The notes beneath the pieces were generated by a model. That model was not told the origin of the DNA. It made no database searches and saw only the letters and a program-made list of their open reading frames with translations. The translations under genes were made by a program, and so were the position numbers. Shown piece by piece: positions 29,465-36,321 of a DNA stretch of 64,000 nucleotides (the stretch's first letter is position 1; each line of letters starts with the position of its first letter). Source of the stretch: a virus; the IMG/VR virus record IMGVR_UViG_3300029922_000015, positions 1-64,000 of that record. One strand, given 5' to 3'.

Positions 29465-31416
29465 GTGTCTAATACGGTATATTCGTCTACGAAGGCTGTA
29501 GAGGAATCCTTATATTTAATATGGGTTTTGTCCTTACCGTTGTGTAAGTAGGTCAGATATCTTTGTGTGCTCGCGTGGAGTAAATATGCAACTTTGAAAA
29601 ATCCCTTATGATTTCCGGCTCCTTCTAACCAAATTAAATTGTCCATCTCGGGAATAAACGGTAACGTTTTGAAAATATAAGGATTGCCCTCAACAATTTC
29701 CATGTATTCGGGCTTGGTCGCGAAATAAATTTTGTCTTCGGGATAAAGATTAAAAATATCTTCTAATAAAGATAAAGCTAAAATAATGTCGCCTGCGGAC
29801 TCAGGAATAACCACTAGAATTCGGTGATCCCTGTCACCTTCAAGTATATTTTCAAAATCGACCTTGATAAGTTTGTCGTTATCTTGTCTGGCGACATTAA
29901 TAAAGAAATTATAAATATCTTCTCTCTTGGCTCCGTTTTGTAATTGTTGCATCCATTGAATAACCCCGCTATCATCATCGGGCAAATCCATAAAAAGAAT
30001 ATTTTTATACATATCCTTTAGCCATGAGAGATTATCTGATATATCCGGCATGGGATATTTGTCATTCTTCTCGGCGGACTTATTTCTATCAAAATGAAAA
30101 TCGTGCTTGGGAATTGCGAGAATGGACTCGGCTATCTCTTTTCCGGTTTTATTTGTAGCGTAATTCTCCAGAGCCCAAGTTCTAGAAAGCCGACCTAAAT
30201 CGGCAATCTTATCCGGCTTCATAGTTAAAGCTCTATAAATAATTTTAGCTATAGTATTGGGATTAGGATTGCTTTTTAAGAATAAACTTCCTATCTCAGT
30301 ATAGAAAGTATAATCAAGCTCAATCGAACCTTTATTAAACTTGATTATATCCTCTCCATACGAATAGTTACATGTCGCGACGGGAAGTTCTGTTAAAGCC
30401 GCTTCAACGCACGGCATTTCACACGCGCCCGAATTAGCTGGGTGAATATAAAAATTCATCAGATTGTAAATCTCATTCAATTGCTGTTCGGTAACGCCGC
30501 ATTGAATATTAGCGGTGATTAGAGATTTAGGAATGCCAGTCTTAGGGTTGGTTAGGTCTTGTCCTTGAAACGGGCCAACAAAATAATCTCTAGTATTCTT
30601 GCAAACATAAGTGCAGAGAACTTCTTTTTGATTTACTCCGTATTGCTTGCATAATTCTTCGATATTCCATCCCTCGCCATAATGAGTATGGGTATAAAGC
30701 ATTGTATGCTTAATCTCTGGATGCTGTCTCTTGAATAGGGCATATCCTTCGATTAACTTGTTGACAAGCTTTCGAGGTTGGTTTCTAAACACGAAACCAT
30801 AGATAAACGCTTGAGGATGGATATTATGGCGCTGTCTCAAAGATAGACGCTCAGAATCAGGCAAACGATAAAAGACTTCGGTATCTAAGCAGGGATATTG
30901 GGTCTTTGTTTCTACTCCCTCTTTTCTAAGAGCGTCTTCGGCAAATTTGCTCCAAGTCCAATAATAAGGGGTGGATTGCGCGTCTTCGATGCATTGCTTG
31001 CTAATAGGCAAGCTATCTACCGTCTCCCAAAAAATTACAGGAACTTTACCAAAAAAGGATTTCTTTCTTATAAAGCTAACGCCCCAAGTATCCTCTATAG
31101 CAAGAAGTACGTCGGGTTTAAACTTAAAAACTAAATCTTCAATAGCGTTATCGCCATACGAAGCCATTTTCGCTAAGTGCGCGTCTTGGTTTAAACGTTG
31201 AACTAATGCCGGATCGGGTGGAATTACTCCATGCGTTGCCCAAGGATATCTTTGGAAATCGGGATGCTCGTAGGGCATTCCGCAAGCGATATGAATCAAT
31301 TCTATCTTATCGCTATAATTAGTAAATAAATATTTAAGTAAAGATTTAGCATTTCTCCCAAAACCTGTGGCAGCGCCACAGTAGTTACTTAAAATCATTA
31401 CCCTCTTTTTCTCCAT
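29452..31416 (-). CDS. GT-B (GT4-like) glycosyltransferase with DUF4214-like and GT9 N-terminal domains
   Basis: ATGFGRNAK, FRNQPRK, LNEIYN...GACEMPCVEAALTELP; MYKNIL...DDSGVIQWMQQLQNG; VVIPESAGDIILAL. Confidence 0.8.
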   Translation of the reverse strand: MEKKRVMILSNYCGAATGFGRNAKSLLKYLFTNYSDKIELIHIACGMPYEHPDFQRYPWATHGVIPPDPALVQRLNQDAHLAKMASYGDNAIEDLVFKFKPDVLLAIEDTWGVSFIRKKSFFGKVPVIFWETVDSLPISKQCIEDAQSTPYYWTWSKFAEDALRKEGVETKTQYPCLDTEVFYRLPDSERLSLRQRHNIHPQAFIYGFVFRNQPRKLVNKLIEGYALFKRQHPEIKHTMLYTHTHYGEGWNIEELCKQYGVNQKEVLCTYVCKNTRDYFVGPFQGQDLTNPKTGIPKSLITANIQCGVTEQQLNEIYNLMNFYIHPANSGACEMPCVEAALTELPVATCNYSYGEDIIKFNKGSIELDYTFYTEIGSLFLKSNPNPNTIAKIIYRALTMKPDKIADLGRLSRTWALENYATNKTGKEIAESILAIPKHDFHFDRNKSAEKNDKYPMPDISDNLSWLKDMYKNILFMDLPDDDSGVIQWMQQLQNGAKREDIYNFFINVARQDNDKLIKVDFENILEGDRDHRILVVIPESAGDIILALSLLEDIFNLYPEDKIYFATKPEYMEIVEGNPYIFKTLPFIPEMDNLIWLEGAGNHKGFFKVAYLLHASTQRYLTYLHNGKDKTHIKYKDSSTAFVDEYTVLDTCTS

Positions 31417-31421
31417 ATCAT

Positions 31422-31450
31422 ATTATATATGAATGAGTAAAAAAAGTCTA
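31422..31450 (-). promoter_or_regulatory. sigma70-like promoter, leaderless
   Basis: TAGACT-17 nt-TATAAT, ATG 5 nt downstream. Confidence 0.7.
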
Positions 31451-31513
31451 ATAAATTATTGATATAAAAAACAATATTATTGTTTGAGATAACCACTTAA
31501 AGTCAATAAAATA

Positions 31514-31543
31514 AAAAGCCTATAAAATTAATTATAGGCTTTT
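31514..31543 (-). terminator. Intrinsic terminator closing the TnpB/ncRNA unit (possibly bidirectional)
   Basis: 12-bp inverted repeat AAAAGCCTATAA / TTATAGGCTTTT with a 6-nt loop and T-rich tail. Confidence 0.75.
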
Positions 31544-31557
31544 ATTTGTTTCTCTCG

Positions 31558-31618
31558 ATTTTCGTTTAAGCGGATAACAACATCACTTACTCTTTAACGA
31601 CATACGAAAGGACTTGTC
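31558..31618 (-). ncRNA. 61-nt pseudoknotted RNA scaffold, copy C (omegaRNA-like)
   Basis: GACAAGTCCTTTCGTATGTCGTTAAAGAGTAAGTGATGTTGTTATCCGCTTAAACGAAAAT; 56/61 identical to copy A. Confidence 0.75.
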
Positions 31619-31630
31619 GAGCTTTTACGT

Positions 31631-31691
31631 ATTTCTTCTTTGTTAGATAGCTACATCAACAACCCTTTATAGACGGGAAGAAGGAACCGTC
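31631..31691 (-). ncRNA. 61-nt pseudoknotted RNA scaffold, copy B, overlapping the tnpB stop codon
   Basis: GACGGTTCCTTCTTCCCGTCTATAAAGGGTTGTTGATGTAGCTATCTAACAAAGAAGAAAT; 37/61 identical to A with 9 compensatory pair changes. Confidence 0.75.
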
Positions 31692-33067
31692 TCTTTAGCT
31701 TTTTGATAACTAAATTCTTGAAATGTCAATGGAGCACCCCTTTTTGTTTTATTAAACTTCATGTAACCCTTTGTTCTAATAGAACGCCACGTATAAAAAT
31801 CTTTCAGTCCTTCTTTCCAAATTATTAGTCCGAATCGAGCAATATTTTTAGCTCCACTAATGTGAGCGTCGAAAGCAGAATGGCAATTCGGGCATTGCGT
31901 CTTATCGTGCGTTTCACGATCTAATTGCGCATCACAACCCAAACACATTTGACTAGTATAAGCGGTCGGCACCAAAACAAATGGGATTCGTTCTTCATAA
32001 CAACGTTTCTGCAAATATTTAATAATTTTATCGTGACCAAACGATCCCATATTAGCACCAGCGGTTAAATTATCAATACATAGCAAAAATCTATTTTCTT
32101 TAATAAACGGAAACCAAGAATCGACAATAGGACGTATAATTTTCAAAAAATGAGCGTGCTTTCTTTGAATCTTAAAACGAATGGCGCTTCTTCGAGCTTG
32201 CGTCAGCCTTTCGGAAGGAAATTTTCTGTCATATTTTTCTTTCCATTCTTTATTAAGTTCGTTTAATCCTTGAATTGCATTTTGACACGCCGGACTCAAG
32301 GATAATTTGATTTTTTCATTAATAGACTGGCTAAAAACTATACTGTTGTCTTTATGACGATTTAAATCGATCCCAAGTGAAGCTTGAGGTAAATAAGCCC
32401 ATTCGAAATCGATAAGTAGAACCATTACATATTCCCATCTTCCGCTATTATATCGGATAAGATTTCCTCCTTTAAACCATTCTCCTTTAGTATTAAGCGA
32501 GTAGTTTCTCTTTAGAGTCTCGATTTTCCATTGGGCGGCTTCGGGAATGGTAAATGGAATAGATAACCATTCATTATCTTTCAAATAATAGGAAAAGATA
32601 TCGTTCGAAATTTTTACCACTCCGCTACTTTGAATTTGAATCGATTTTCCGTTCTTGATTTTAGGAGGAGAAGTAATTGATTTTTTCTTGAATCGCTTGG
32701 CTCGCGAGGAATACATTTCGATAGCTTTAAACGAAATAGCTTTGGCTGGGGCTTGCTTGTTCCACCCGAATCTCTCTTGAAATTTTGGCATTAATTCTCT
32801 AGTAAAATCATCAGGGAATTTAGCTCTTTTCGGTTTTAAATCGTCCAAAGAGATTTCTTGATTATTATATTTATCGTGAATAATTTCAAGACTATCATTG
32901 ACAGCTTTTTTAAATCCATTTAAAATCTCCAATAGCATTGTTTCCTGATTTGGAGTAGGATTTAAATGCAAATTAACTTTAATTAATTTGAATGGTTTTT
33001 CTTTCCATTCTGAATCGAAAGGGAGTCTTTGTTTTTTCATAGGAAAATGCGGAATAGTTTGACCCAT
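31667..33067 (-). CDS. tnpB: TnpB/Cas12f-like RNA-guided protein with non-canonical RuvC triad
   Basis: IS605 OrfB-type N-terminus (VNLHLNPTPNQETML...KAVN); RuvC-I LGID234LN; RuvC-II LCID332NL; TSQMCxxC...CxxC Zn finger; RuvC-III DAH402ISGAKNI. Confidence 0.85.
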   Translation of the reverse strand: MGQTIPHFPMKKQRLPFDSEWKEKPFKLIKVNLHLNPTPNQETMLLEILNGFKKAVNDSLEIIHDKYNNQEISLDDLKPKRAKFPDDFTRELMPKFQERFGWNKQAPAKAISFKAIEMYSSRAKRFKKKSITSPPKIKNGKSIQIQSSGVVKISNDIFSYYLKDNEWLSIPFTIPEAAQWKIETLKRNYSLNTKGEWFKGGNLIRYNSGRWEYVMVLLIDFEWAYLPQASLGIDLNRHKDNSIVFSQSINEKIKLSLSPACQNAIQGLNELNKEWKEKYDRKFPSERLTQARRSAIRFKIQRKHAHFLKIIRPIVDSWFPFIKENRFLLCIDNLTAGANMGSFGHDKIIKYLQKRCYEERIPFVLVPTAYTSQMCLGCDAQLDRETHDKTQCPNCHSAFDAHISGAKNIARFGLIIWKEGLKDFYTWRSIRTKGYMKFNKTKRGAPLTFQEFSYQKAKETVPSSRL

Positions 33068-33089
33068 TCCGCATTATTAGTTTCAGGCT

Positions 33090-33150
33090 ATTTTCGTTTA
33101 AGCTGATAACTACATCGCTTACTCTTTATAGACATACGAAAGGACTTGTC
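33090..33150 (-). ncRNA. 61-nt pseudoknotted RNA scaffold, copy A, upstream of tnpB
   Basis: GACAAGTCCTTTCGTATGTCTATAAAGAGTAAGCGATGTAGTTATCAGCTTAAACGAAAAT; starts 1 nt after the SSB-like gene's stop codon. Confidence 0.75.
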
Positions 33151-33151
33151 T

Positions 33152-33703
33152 TTAAAACGGATCGGCCCCGCTATCTTCTCCGGCAGTTGAATCCTCACCC
33201 TTTGGAGTTTCAGACGACTTCGGAGCTTGAGCTTTTTTAGCCGCGTAATCCTTTGCCCGCTTGATATCTTCTGAATATTGAGCGTCGAAGAAATGAGTTA
33301 AAACATACTTTAAATGTTCTTCTAGTAGAACCGCCTCGTCTAATGTAAACGGCACTTTCCACTTTTCGGTATTCTTAAGGACGGTCAAACCGAATCCGGC
33401 CACCGTATCAGAATCCTTTGTCTTATAAGGAGCAAAGAAAATGGTAGTCTTCGAATCTGCGGTTGTATGGAAAAACTTAACTTCGATTAAATTACGAAGC
33501 GAGCGCAGAAATCCGCCAATCTCCGTTGCGTTAAATTTAATGTTTAGCTTCTGTCCCTCCTTAAAGCTTCCGATGTGACGAGACTCGTCGTATCCTGTTT
33601 GTCTGACAATTTGAATGTATAGCGCCCCGTCTTTACTATTGAAAGAAAAGTCCGCGAGTGCTCCCGTTACTGTTTTATTTGGTTTGAAAAAACTTAGGCC
33701 CAT
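33152..33703 (-). CDS. Putative single-stranded DNA-binding protein (PC4/Whirly-like fold)
   Basis: Beta-beta-beta-alpha pattern twice; disordered acidic tail ending SGADPF like the bacterial SSB C-terminus; adjacent to DnaE. Confidence 0.5.
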   Translation of the reverse strand: MGLSFFKPNKTVTGALADFSFNSKDGALYIQIVRQTGYDESRHIGSFKEGQKLNIKFNATEIGGFLRSLRNLIEVKFFHTTADSKTTIFFAPYKTKDSDTVAGFGLTVLKNTEKWKVPFTLDEAVLLEEHLKYVLTHFFDAQYSEDIKRAKDYAAKKAQAPKSSETPKGEDSTAGEDSGADPF

Positions 33704-33735
33704 AATTTTATTCCTTATTGTATATTGTATATTTC

Positions 33736-36321
33736 TTACGTTACTTTATCCACTAATTCTTCTTCTTTAAATTCATTTCTTAACTCTGAAAGCTTAGTAT
33801 AAATTTTAAAGTTTTGAATGTCACATTTATCCAAAAAGATTGTTTCGTTATCTTGTTTTTTTCCCTTGACAAAGACGATATCTCCTTCTTTCGGAATAAC
33901 TCCGCCATTCTCTTCCATGATCAAATCGACGGTCGCCGAACGTTCCGTGTTAAACGCCATAGCTCTAATGATTCCCGTTTCGTCTTGCAGACTTAGGGCG
34001 AGATAGACTGTTCCTTTACGAGAGGTTTTTTTTGAACTTTCTAGAACTTCGCACACAGAGAAAATTCGATCATTCTGGTCTTTTTTGTCTTGGATATCCC
34101 GAACCGTCTCTAGAAGATTCATGTACTCAGAATTAATTTCTCGAAGATTGTAAGTATATGGATAACCCATATTCTGCTTTTCGTAGTAGTAGATTGCTAG
34201 TTTATCAAATTGACTATTCTTCTGGAAAATCTCTTTGTATGGTGCTGCACGACGCTTTAAAGTTTCTAGTCGGGTGTCTTTGATATAAGGCTTTCCCTTA
34301 TCATTTTTATTCTTAATCATGTACCCTAAAATTTCGCGCAAGTCTTTATACTTGTCACTCATTTGGATAAAGATAGCGTGAACGTATTTCTTTTCGGTCG
34401 CTGTAAGCAAACGATAAAGCTGAGCCTCGTAAACAAGAGAACTTCGGTCAATATCGGATTCTAAACAGCCGCTCTGAATTAAGCAGGAAAGAACCCCGAT
34501 ATTGATTTTGCATTGTTCTGCGGCGGCAAATAGCTCGAATCGATTTGCATATTCCTTACGGAAACCAAGAAGCTTTTCGATGGTCTTATCTGAAATACCA
34601 CGCAATGATCCTAGCCCATAACGAATATTTCCATTCTCAATTGAAAATTCCAACTTAGAATTAGTTAGGCTTGGAGGTAAAAGCTTAATTCCGAAATCTT
34701 GCAACTCGTGTTGAATCGTATTAATTTCCTGTAATGGGTTTTGCTCGAACTTGGCTTGATTGAGCAAAGCAATATAAAACTGCAAAGGGTGTTTGTATTT
34801 TAGATAAATAGTTAAAGCAGCTAAGGCCGCGAAGGAAACAGAGTGAGAAAGATTGAACGAGTATTTAGATGAATCGTCTAGAATCTTCCATAGCAATTCG
34901 CCCAAAGCTTCGGGGTGCTTATTTTCCTTACATTTGGCGTAAATCTTTTCTTTCCATTCTTTAACTTCGTCTACTTTTTTCTTACCTACGATGCGACGAA
35001 GAATTTCCGCTTCTTCTAAAGAGAAGCCCATCGCATGAGCCATTTGCATCATTTCCTCTTGATATAAACACACATATCGAGTCTTTTTTAGAATAGGATC
35101 AAAAATAGGATGAACTTTTTCATCCGAGTTAGCCACGTACTTATCCACATAAGCAAGAGCGCCGGGGCGAGCCATAGCAACCACGTCAGATAATTCTAAC
35201 AAATTCTTAGGACAAACTTGATTAGCCACGCGCAAATTACAATCCGCTTCGAGTTGGAAAATACCATGCGGATACTTTAAACCGTATTTTAAATTATCGT
35301 AAATAATAGGATCGTTGTCTACGTTGATAGTGCGCCAATCAATTCCTAGCTGCTTACAACAATCGTCAACCACGGCAGAACAACGCGAACCAAGAATATC
35401 TAACTTAATAGATAAAGAGGAAACATCATTCATAGTATAGCAACTGACTAAATCTTTATCTTTGGTAAGTTGCAGGGGCATTTCGTCTAATAGTTCTTTA
35501 TACGAAACGACGTATCCCGAAGCGTGAACCGAGGAATTCTTATAGAGATTTCTTAGCTTTAAAGCTATCTCATAAGCTTCTTTGTTTTCATCTGCCCATC
35601 TACGAAATTCCGCTTCGTCTTTATATGCATCTTCTAAATCGTGAACTATGCCAAAATGTTTAGGAATTAAATCGGCGACCTTAACCATCTCATGTTCGGG
35701 ATGCTCCTCAACAATCTTTCCGCATTCCTTGATTAGAATTTTTCCGCTCAATTCTGACATATTCAGAATTTTGCACATACGATTAGGATAGAGAGAATTA
35801 AGGAACTCGACTACCTGTTGACGTTTATGAGGGTTCACATCCAAATCGACATCGGGAGCCAATCCCCCGTCGATATAAGTTATTCCTTCTACGACCTTCT
35901 TTTTAGCGCGAGTCTTAGAAATGAATCGTTCGAAGAACAATCCATATTTTAAAGGATCGATTTCAGTAACCCCCAAGCAATAGAATATGAGCGATCCTGC
36001 TGCGCTTCCGCGACCGTAATCTCGCATAATATTATTAGTTTGACAAAAATTACATACGCGCCATACTAGTAAGAAATAATCTACAAAACCCAATTCACTG
36101 ATCGTATCTAACTCTCTATGTAACCGAGCTAAATAATCAGGATTGTTATCTGATAAACCGCGTTGAGCAAAACCCTTTTGAGCGATAAACCCAAGAAATT
36201 GATCATTACTACAGTTCTTATTTCCGTAAGTAGAGAGTTCTTCTTCGGTAAGACGTATTTCTGGTAATCTAATATATCCAAAATCGAACTTATAGTTCGT
36301 AAATTTATCTGTGAAACTCAT
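33736..36321 (-). CDS. dnaE: DNA polymerase III alpha subunit lacking the N-terminal PHP domain
   Basis: GFVDYFL, GRGSAAGSL, LFFERF, PDVDLD, VHASG, KLDILG, YSFNLSH, C-terminal OB fold. Confidence 0.92.
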   Translation of the reverse strand: MSFTDKFTNYKFDFGYIRLPEIRLTEEELSTYGNKNCSNDQFLGFIAQKGFAQRGLSDNNPDYLARLHRELDTISELGFVDYFLLVWRVCNFCQTNNIMRDYGRGSAAGSLIFYCLGVTEIDPLKYGLFFERFISKTRAKKKVVEGITYIDGGLAPDVDLDVNPHKRQQVVEFLNSLYPNRMCKILNMSELSGKILIKECGKIVEEHPEHEMVKVADLIPKHFGIVHDLEDAYKDEAEFRRWADENKEAYEIALKLRNLYKNSSVHASGYVVSYKELLDEMPLQLTKDKDLVSCYTMNDVSSLSIKLDILGSRCSAVVDDCCKQLGIDWRTINVDNDPIIYDNLKYGLKYPHGIFQLEADCNLRVANQVCPKNLLELSDVVAMARPGALAYVDKYVANSDEKVHPIFDPILKKTRYVCLYQEEMMQMAHAMGFSLEEAEILRRIVGKKKVDEVKEWKEKIYAKCKENKHPEALGELLWKILDDSSKYSFNLSHSVSFAALAALTIYLKYKHPLQFYIALLNQAKFEQNPLQEINTIQHELQDFGIKLLPPSLTNSKLEFSIENGNIRYGLGSLRGISDKTIEKLLGFRKEYANRFELFAAAEQCKINIGVLSCLIQSGCLESDIDRSSLVYEAQLYRLLTATEKKYVHAIFIQMSDKYKDLREILGYMIKNKNDKGKPYIKDTRLETLKRRAAPYKEIFQKNSQFDKLAIYYYEKQNMGYPYTYNLREINSEYMNLLETVRDIQDKKDQNDRIFSVCEVLESSKKTSRKGTVYLALSLQDETGIIRAMAFNTERSATVDLIMEENGGVIPKEGDIVFVKGKKQDNETIFLDKCDIQNFKIYTKLSELRNEFKEEELVDKVT

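What the first reader, a model, noticed from the sequence alone, without database searches (positions are those of the whole stretch)
31544..33089. Putative guides are very short, with a 5-nt hypervariable window
Seen: the segments 3' of each scaffold are A AGCCT-GAAACTAATAA.. (22 nt to the ATG), B ACGTA-AAAGCTC (only 12 nt before copy C) and C CGAGA-GAAACAAATAA (14 nt to the terminator stem). A and C are 56/61 identical in the scaffold, differ at 4 of the next 5 nt, then match again (GAAAC.AATAA). Inference: specificity may sit in a 5-12 nt seed, so the protein would bind many short sites (TAM plus seed) like a programmable transcription factor. I found no convincing full-length match elsewhere in the window by eye.
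Basis: partly seen in the sequence, partly recalled or inferred. Interest (0 to 1): 0.7.

Follow-up and report, generated by a model that had tools for sequence, protein, structure and literature searches.

The report
Short variable loop in phage TnpB RNAs
A large phage carries a TnpB/Cas12f-like gene with three copies of a small doubly knotted RNA. The five bases that differ between two copies lie in a 9-base single-stranded bridge between the two knots, and this bridge may act as an unusually short guide.

Summary
The coordinates hold, the scaffolds of A and C are 56/61 identical, 4 of the next 5 nt differ, and the sequences then match again (4/5 differences in the window against 6/72 elsewhere, p=7e-4).

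The block that "matches again" (GAAAC.AATAA) is not guide. It contains the 3' strand of a second pseudoknot (PK2) that pairs with the apical loop of hairpin 2:
- A: UAGUU/AACUA
- C: UUGUU/AACAA
- B: AGCU/AGCU

The single A/C difference in that block compensates the single A/C difference in the loop.

Each unit therefore reads H1, UAUAAAG, H2, PK1', a 9-nt single-stranded junction J, then PK2'. The 5-nt window is the middle of J.

The same layout, with J of 8-11 nt, recurs in all 15 units scored in six loci of 30-36% identical homologues (Fisher p=4e-11 over 11 units taken as roughly independent). Recently duplicated units elsewhere also differ almost only in J: 6 nt in four units of L014 and 8 nt in L013.

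The protein has a Cas12f/TnpB fold with RuvC residues D-D-H. The record holds no TnpA and only one tnpB copy.

No target was found, and RNA ends could not be mapped.

The scan has already noted this RNA-protein family on other phage DNA (e1-5697175, e1-5697176).

The parts
33078..33150 (-). RNA unit A, in the 5' UTR of the tnpB-like gene. Starts 1 nt after the stop codon of the SSB-like gene. H1 33150-33131, H2 33121-33099, PK1 3' strand 33097-33092, junction J 33091-33083, PK2 3' strand 33082-33078.
   Evidence: covariation; 24 pairs, 95.8% paired, 11 compensatory.
33085..33089 (-).
33046..33075 (-). Hairpin (12 pairs) followed by UUUUCC, directly after unit A. It encloses the first in-frame ATG (33067) and ends 5 nt before the ATG at 33040. 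Terminator-like or attenuator-like.
   Evidence: fold of 33035-33155, z=-3.0.
31667..33067 (-). TnpB/Cas12f-like ORF, 466 aa. The real start is probably M10, at 33040. RuvC-I is D234 (GIDLN), RuvC-II is D332 (CIDNL), RuvC-III is H400 (FDAHISGAKNI). Zinc finger CxxC...CxxC.
31620..31691 (-). RNA unit B. It overlaps the last 8 codons and the stop codon, which lies in the UAUAAAG linker. J is 31632-31624 (AUACGUAAA). PK2 3' strand AGCU is 31623-31620.
31546..31618 (-). RNA unit C. It starts 1 nt after unit B's PK2 strand. J is 31559-31551 (AUCGAGAGA, variable CGAGA at 31557-31553). PK2 3' strand AACAA is 31550-31546.
31514..31543 (-). Bidirectional intrinsic terminator (12-bp stem, U tract) that closes the cassette.

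Best explanation
The three elements are copies of one compact RNA of about 73 nt. It is transcribed in the sense of the tnpB-like gene and folds into two interlocked pseudoknots.

Layout of the unit:
- Hairpin 1, whose loop pairs with the 3' tail (PK1).
- A UAUAAAG linker.
- Hairpin 2, whose apical loop pairs with a second tail segment (PK2).
- Between the two tail segments, a single-stranded junction J of 9 nt.

Shown here: the fold, its covariation, its recurrence in the protein's relatives, and the fact that J is the only part that diverges quickly between young paralogous units.

Inferred: the Cas12f/TnpB-like protein binds each unit as TnpB binds its omega-RNA. J sits exactly where a TnpB guide starts and serves as a very short guide or seed (about 5-9 nt, read together with a TAM). 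PK2 caps the guide and stacks where the TAM-distal RNA-DNA duplex would normally lie. J plus PK2 comes to 14-21 nt, the length of an ordinary guide.

Three units would give three specificities. With RuvC residues D-D-H the protein is more likely a binder or regulator, or an enzyme with altered chemistry, than a canonical cutter.
For: Fold in the window:
- 24 pairs in 4 helices, 95.8% of cells paired, 11 pairs with compensatory changes, 0/500 shuffles as good; slid controls give 37-49% paired.
- PK2 in the window: columns 39-43 with 69-73, 14/15 cells paired, 2/5 pairs compensatory. The only A/C difference in the tail block (position 72, U/A) compensates the only A/C difference in the H2 loop (position 40, A/U).
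- All 5 scaffold differences between A and C are unpaired or keep pairing.
- G-U pairs fit RNA of the tnpB-sense strand.

Family:
- All 15 units scored in 6 loci show complementarity between the H2 loop and the tail, starting 9-12 nt after PK1. Fisher p=3.6e-11 over 11 units.
- J is 8-11 nt, mostly 9.

J evolves fastest:
- Four L014 units are near-identical except for a 6-nt window.
- L013 has 7/8 differences in the window against 7/105 elsewhere.
- Window A against C has 4/5 against 6/72.

No room for a longer guide.

Stand-alone unit: the second L013 unit has its own TTGACA-17-TATAAT promoter and its own terminator, so about 64 nt of scaffold suffices.

Protein:
- Pfam TNB domain.
- AF2 pLDDT 82.5; top Foldseek hits are Cas12f, TnpB and Fanzor2.
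- The family's H/Q/D position aligns with the catalytic Asp of RuvC-III.

Precedent: TldR uses 9-16-nt guides and a seed of about 6 nt (10.1101/2023.11.30.569447).
Against:
- No target, no TAM and no host are known. Matches of J in the phage's own genome are at chance level.
- PK2 in this window is short and AU-rich (5, 4 and 5 bp). Per-unit shuffle p is only 0.07-0.17 here. Its support comes from covariation and from the family.
- In L010 the J difference is only 2 nt, and other tail positions differ too.
- A covariance model built from the three window copies does not find the relatives' units. Equivalence across loci therefore rests on architecture and position, judged by eye and by script.
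- A guide of 5-9 nt would be shorter than any shown to work for a TnpB relative.
Confidence: 0.5

Rival explanations
1. Full-length guide with a built-in cage. The whole 14-16 nt after PK1 (J plus the PK2 strand) is the guide. The hairpin-2 loop sequesters its distal half until the exposed J seed has paired with a target, and the distal half then switches from RNA-RNA to RNA-DNA pairing.
For: - J plus PK2 spans 14-21 nt, the usual guide length.
- The A/C repeat ends exactly 16 nt after the scaffold.
- In the old units of L016 the tails differ over their whole length, as independent guides would.
Against: - PK2 helices drift by compensatory change just as H1, H2 and PK1 do, which fits a structural helix.
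- Young paralogous units keep the distal part identical and change only J. Their targets would then have to share the distal 9-12 nt.
- No 12-16-nt match is found in the phage.
- J length is held at about 9 nt across very divergent units.
Confidence: 0.15
2. No guide function. The units are protein-binding or regulatory RNA modules, for example autoregulation of tnpB through unit A in its 5' UTR, RNA stabilisers, or decoys. J is then merely an unconstrained linker that mutates freely.
For: - Unit A sits in the 5' UTR, followed by a hairpin that encloses the first ATG.
- No target was found.
- Fixed ends of J (AU...G/A-A here, ...CUU in L014) suggest structural constraint.
Against: - In L014 about 25 other unpaired positions are invariant among four units, while all 6 window positions vary. 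Tandem repeats tend to homogenise, so distinct J sequences look maintained.
- J sits exactly at the guide position of TnpB RNAs.
- Multi-unit arrays of 4-5 units (L014, L016, L033) are hard to explain by autoregulation.
Confidence: 0.2
3. Selfish-element debris. A and C are duplicated right ends or end remnants of an IS200/IS605- or IS607-type element, and the 5-nt patch is mutational noise.
For: - TnpB genes normally ride on such elements, and the scaffold overlaps the ORF 3' end as in IS elements.
- Two related phages lack the cassette at this site.
Against: - No Y1 or serine transposase and only one tnpB in the 150-kb record.
- All copies keep the fold through compensatory changes.
- The multi-unit layout (upstream, ORF end, downstream) recurs in homologues only 30% identical.
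- A distant phage has a homologue in the same slot between the SSB gene and the glycosyltransferase-like gene. There the protein is 30% identical, while the two flanking-gene segments that could be compared (the polymerase C-terminal region and the N-terminal ~105 residues of the downstream gene) align at only ~20-26% identity, the polymerase match not significantly.
Confidence: 0.07

Closest known systems
TldR (TnpB-like nuclease-dead repressors) with their gRNA (Wiegand et al.; 10.1101/2023.11.30.569447; 10.64898/2026.09.22.753285)
   Same: - TnpB-derived protein with a non-canonical RuvC site.
- Some are phage-borne.
- The guide RNA is encoded at the 3' end of the gene.
- Mature guides are short (16 nt, or 9-11 nt), with a seed of about 6 nt plus a TAM.
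   Different: - TldR uses one gRNA with a scaffold of about 100 nt and a free 3' guide. Here there are three (elsewhere up to five) units of about 73 nt whose 3' end is tied back by a second pseudoknot.
- TldR has lost RuvC residues or is truncated. Here the triad is D-D-H with motif III present.
- Clade membership was not tested. No target promoter is known.
Omega-RNA arrays and CRISPR-like arrays with repeats over 60 bp near Cas12f-related or inactivated TnpBs (Altae-Tran et al. 2023, PMC10691335, Sigma-TnpB section); dCas12f-sigmaE RNA-guided transcription (PMC13472631)
   Same: - Whole omega-RNA units are duplicated into irregular arrays with sharp scaffold/guide boundaries.
- Best sequence match to a solved structure: a Cas12f, 9nzq; top fold matches: Cas12f structures including 8j12, 9nzs and 9nzq.
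- A homologue in the same gene slot of another phage is followed by a sigma-70 r2/r4 gene.
   Different: - Those systems use 14-16-nt guides.
- No second pseudoknot closing the guide is described in the passages read.
- This record holds no sigma-70 region 2 gene.
- The systems described there are chromosomal.
Canonical TnpB-omegaRNA of IS200/IS605 and IS607 (ISDra2 8h1j/8exa; ISFba1 8iaz, PMC11061315)
   Same: - Same protein fold.
- The scaffold overlaps the ORF 3' end.
- A pseudoknot lies directly 5' of the guide position.
   Different: - Those scaffolds are 100-190 nt with a free guide of 16-20 nt taken from the flanking DNA, and there is one RNA per element.
- They have a TnpA partner, many copies, and a D-E-D triad.
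Cas12m2 (HDD RuvC; PMC10442227)
   Same: A type V relative in which His and Asp replace canonical RuvC residues. It binds DNA tightly and silences without cutting.
   Different: - The His is at motif I there and at motif III here.
- It works with a CRISPR array and ordinary spacers.

Membership tests
TnpB/Cas12f superfamily (protein) | RuvC (RNase H) fold split by a zinc-ribbon TNB domain | tested here: met
   - Pfam PF07282, E 8e-11.
- AF2 pLDDT 82.5, with Foldseek hits to Cas12f, TnpB and Fanzor2 at E 1e-13 to 1e-11.
- CxxC...CxxC present.
TnpB/Cas12f superfamily (protein) | Canonical D-E-D catalytic triad | tested here: not met
   - The triad here is D234, D332, H400.
- The whole family has Asp at motif II.
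- Motif III is H, Q or D among relatives, and that position aligns with the catalytic Asp of Cas12f and Fanzor2.
OMEGA system (TnpB with omega-RNA) | Structured RNA overlapping the ORF 3' end, with a pseudoknot next to the guide position | tested here: met
   Unit B overlaps the last 8 codons. PK1 has 4/6 compensatory pairs.
OMEGA system (TnpB with omega-RNA) | Free 3' guide of about 16-20 nt derived from flanking DNA | tested here: not met
   The tail is 12-16 nt, and its distal part pairs with the H2 loop (PK2). Only about 9 nt are unpaired.
IS200/IS605 or IS607 mobile element | TnpA (Y1 or serine recombinase) partner, or multiple copies | tested here: not met
   No PF01797, no PF00239, and one PF07282 hit in the 150-kb record, which is 75% complete. 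No other copy of the RNA.
TldR | Loss of nuclease activity, and a guide matching a promoter next to a TAM | not testable with these tools
   The activity of D-D-H cannot be judged from sequence. No target or TAM was found.
CRISPR array | Short repeats (about 25-40 nt) with spacers of about 30 nt | tested here: not met
   The repeating unit is about 73-84 nt and the variable part is 5-8 nt. The cas1/cas2 adaptation genes, the other usual hallmark of a CRISPR locus, were not searched for.
Rfam families | Match to a curated RNA model | tested here: not met
   Only sub-threshold chance hits in 30500-34500.

The most novel reading that the evidence does not exclude
A class of phage TnpB/Cas12f-like ribonucleoproteins whose programmable element is a 5-9-nt junction held between two pseudoknots. 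The second pseudoknot would stand in for the TAM-distal part of the RNA-DNA duplex. Arrays would diversify only that junction. This would give a natural seed-only RNA-guided DNA (or RNA) binder with the specificity of a transcription factor, retargetable by a handful of point mutations.
Probability: 0.35. Interest if true: 0.85.

Novelty: new variant of a known kind. Interest (0 to 1): 0.7.

Why it matters
If J is the guide, this would be the shortest natural guide in the TnpB/Cas12 lineage. It would also be the first one closed by a cis pseudoknot.

It would show how an RNA-guided protein can work at transcription-factor-like specificity, and how new specificities arise by changing 5-6 bases in a duplicated unit.

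The RNA is about 73 nt and the protein about 450 aa, which is attractive for engineering.

It would also make the function of a recurrent phage replication-module gene directly testable.

Tried and rejected
- Rfam scan of the locus: nothing relevant.
- BLAST of the locus against phage records: no match.
- Close relatives of the protein: none. The best are 30-36% identical. The search for related loci with the protein, with P0009, with P0022 and with the SSB-like protein in viral contigs found nothing.
- Scaffold pattern in viral and metagenome contigs: no hits. A pattern for the L014 unit with a free J gave 15 hits, all chance and none with a scaffold.
Paralogous units in distant homologous loci were used instead.
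- Guide targets in the window and in the whole record (9-16-mers with mismatches; the constant block): chance level.
- A covariance model built from A, B and C finds only A, B and C in the whole genome and none of the relatives' units, even with filters off.
- An 11-nt match (GAAAATCGAGA) inside the ORF to the end of scaffold C plus its window: judged to be chance.
- IS-end reading: rejected as the main explanation.
- A homologue of the L016 sigma gene: not found in this record.

Full report
**Observation**

On the minus strand the order of elements is as follows:
- DNA polymerase III alpha (33736-36321)
- SSB-like gene (33152-33703)
- unit A (from 33150)
- a hairpin (33075-33046)
- a 466-aa TnpB-like ORF (33067-31667)
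- unit B (from 31691, overlapping the last 8 codons)
- unit C (from 31618)
- a terminator (31543-31514)
- a 654-aa glycosyltransferase-like gene

- 56/61 identity of scaffolds A and C
- AGCCT against CGAGA (4 of 5 differ)
- GAAACTAATAA against GAAACAAATAA (1 of 11 differs)
- 12 nt between B and C
- 14 nt from C to the terminator stem
- 22 nt from A to the ATG at 33067

The A/C repeat is in fact 77 nt long. Differences cluster in the window: 4/5 against 6/72, p=7e-4.

**The scaffold**

The three copies share hairpin H1, a UAUAAAG linker that holds the stop codon of the ORF in copy B, hairpin H2, and a pseudoknot PK1 between the H1 loop and the tail.

On the 61-nt alignment 96.5% of cells pair, and 9 of 19 pairs show compensatory changes. 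Slid controls give 37-47% paired. G-U pairs fit RNA of the tnpB-sense strand.

**New here: a second pseudoknot**

A helix search over units from several loci showed that the H2 apical loop is complementary to the tail about 9 nt after PK1.

In the window the pairs are columns 39-43 with 69-73:
- A: UAGUU/AACUA
- C: UUGUU/AACAA
- B: AGCU/AGCU

Fourteen of 15 cells pair, and 2 of 5 pairs are compensatory. The one A/C difference in the 'constant' block (position 72) is the partner of the one A/C difference in the H2 loop (position 40).

The block that 'matches again' is therefore a structural strand. It is conserved between A and C because they are recent copies and because it must pair.

What remains unpaired is a 9-nt junction J:
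- A: AUAGCCUGA
- B: AUACGUAAA
- C: AUCGAGAGA

**Family evidence**

The nearest homologues are only 30-36% identical. Ten of them were traced to contigs.

| Locus | Protein, RuvC-III residue | Units seen |
|---|---|---|
| L014 | P0009, Gln | Four tandem 84-nt units, the first over the ORF stop. Near-identical except for 6 nt right after PK1 (GGCGAG, TGCGGA, TGCGTG, GTTGAG). Then a constant CTTCATCT, which pairs with the H2 loop GUAGAUG. |
| L013 | P0012, His | Two units that differ at 7 of the first 8 tail nt and at 7 of 105 elsewhere. The second has its own TTGACA-17-TATAAT promoter and terminator. |
| L010 | P0006, His | Two tandem units with compensatory PK1 and PK2. |
| L016/L017 | P0022, Asp | Five units: three upstream of the ORF, one at its end, one downstream. 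All PK1 and PK2 helices have different sequences. |
| L033 | P0010, Gln | Two upstream, one at the ORF end, one downstream. |
| L006 | P0005, His | One upstream, one at the ORF end, and the start of a third at the contig end. |

The loop-to-tail complement was restricted to the MFE-defined H2 loop (plus or minus 2 nt) and to a tail start 9-12 nt after PK1. Under that restriction all 15 units tested have a complement of 4-11 bp. Per-unit shuffle p is 0.002-0.17. Fisher p is 3.6e-11 over 11 units that I took as roughly independent.

J is 8-11 nt long, mostly 9. J plus PK2 comes to 14-21 nt.

**Protein**

- Pfam Cas12f1-like TNB domain.
- AF2 model with pLDDT 82.5 and pTM 0.80.
- Foldseek top hits are Cas12f, ISDra2 TnpB, ISFba1 TnpB and Fanzor2.
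- A profile search of solved structures gives a full-length match to a Cas12f (9nzq). It aligns the family's motif-II Asp with the catalytic Glu, and its motif-III His/Gln/Asp with the catalytic Asp.
- The triad here is D234, D332, H400.
- Residues 1-11 are disordered and homologue alignments start at residues 10-16, so M10 (33040) is the likelier start.

**Context**

The 150-kb record (75% complete) has no Y1 transposase, no serine recombinase, one tnpB, and no further RNA copy.

Related phages L007 and L009 (polymerase 44-46% identical) have the SSB-like gene followed directly by the 654-aa homologue, with no cassette.

A much more distant phage (L016) has a homologue in the same slot. There the TnpB-like protein is 30% identical, while the two flanking-gene segments that could be compared (polymerase C-terminal region, N-terminus of the downstream gene) align at about 20-26%. 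That homologue is followed by a sigma-70 r2/r4 gene.

The cassette is thus either old and lost in some lineages, or gained repeatedly at this slot. It does not look like a freshly landed IS.

**Mechanism**

Shown:
- the fold
- the position of J at the guide start
- the conserved length of J
- the fast divergence of J

Inferred: J acts as a short guide or seed, with PK2 as a cap that mimics the distal duplex.

Rivals:
- a caged full-length guide
- a non-guide regulatory RNA with a free linker
- IS debris

The first rival is disfavoured because PK2 drifts like any structural helix, and because young units change only J. The second is disfavoured because other unpaired positions stay invariant while J varies. 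The third is disfavoured by selection on all copies and by the recurrence of the layout.

**Comparison with what is known**

- TldR uses 9-16-nt guides and a seed of about 6 nt (10.1101/2023.11.30.569447).
- dCas12f-sigmaE uses 14-16 nt (PMC13472631).
- Omega-RNA arrays with repeats over 60 bp and sharp boundaries were noted by Altae-Tran et al. (PMC10691335).
- Cas12m2, with His-Asp-Asp, binds without cutting (PMC10442227).
- In the passages I read, none describes a guide segment closed by a second pseudoknot, or arrays whose units differ only in 5-8 nt. I did not read these papers in full.

Earlier notes of this scan (e1-5697175, e1-5697176) report, on other phage DNA, pseudoknotted RNAs of about 62 nt beside a TnpB-like gene with a fast-changing 6-base stretch. 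That agrees with what I find here. I did not examine their loci.

**Caveats**

- There are no expression data.
- PK2 in this window is weak in energy terms.
- Structural equivalence between loci was set by script and by eye, not by a covariance model.
- 'Hypervariable' in this locus rests on a single pair of copies.

Noticed in passing
L016:2941-3393 (also L017:2222-2674): In a distant phage with the same gene order (Pol III alpha, SSB, TnpB-like gene, glycosyltransferase-like gene), a 150-aa sigma-70 r2/r4 (ECF-like) gene sits directly after the TnpB homologue. That homologue has Asp at RuvC-III. The arrangement recalls the dCas12f-sigmaE systems. This window's record holds no sigma-70 region 2 gene.
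   Followed up: partly
L013:1599-1753: The second RNA unit of this homologous locus has its own TTGACA-17-TATAAT promoter and its own terminator. It is therefore a free-standing small-RNA gene with about 64 nt of scaffold plus 20 nt.
   Followed up: partly
L004, L005, L006, L011, L012 (contig ends): Five contigs that carry homologues stop within a few bases of the tnpB 3' end, inside the RNA unit. This is what assemblers do at a repeat, and it suggests flanking or tandem unit copies there too.
   Followed up: no
L015:762-1500: There is a 740-nt non-coding stretch upstream of the P0014 homologue (Asp at RuvC-III). It holds a copy of the ORF-end unit (767-857 against 2684-2771) and a separate three-copy repeat of 111-116 nt (1081, 1197, 1308).
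   Followed up: no
window 33040-33075: The hairpin after unit A encloses the first in-frame ATG (33067). The likelier start (33040) follows its U tract with no Shine-Dalgarno sequence. Expression of tnpB must therefore read through this hairpin, which could be an attenuation or autoregulation point.
   Followed up: partly
window 32518-32538 (minus strand): Inside the tnpB ORF, GAAAATCGAGA repeats the last 6 nt of scaffold C plus its 5-nt window (17/21 over a longer stretch). Probably chance.
   Followed up: partly
L010:1-1943: The neighbour of the P0006 homologue, on a 587-kb contig, is a ribonucleotide reductase large subunit with inteins and a LAGLIDADG domain.
   Followed up: no
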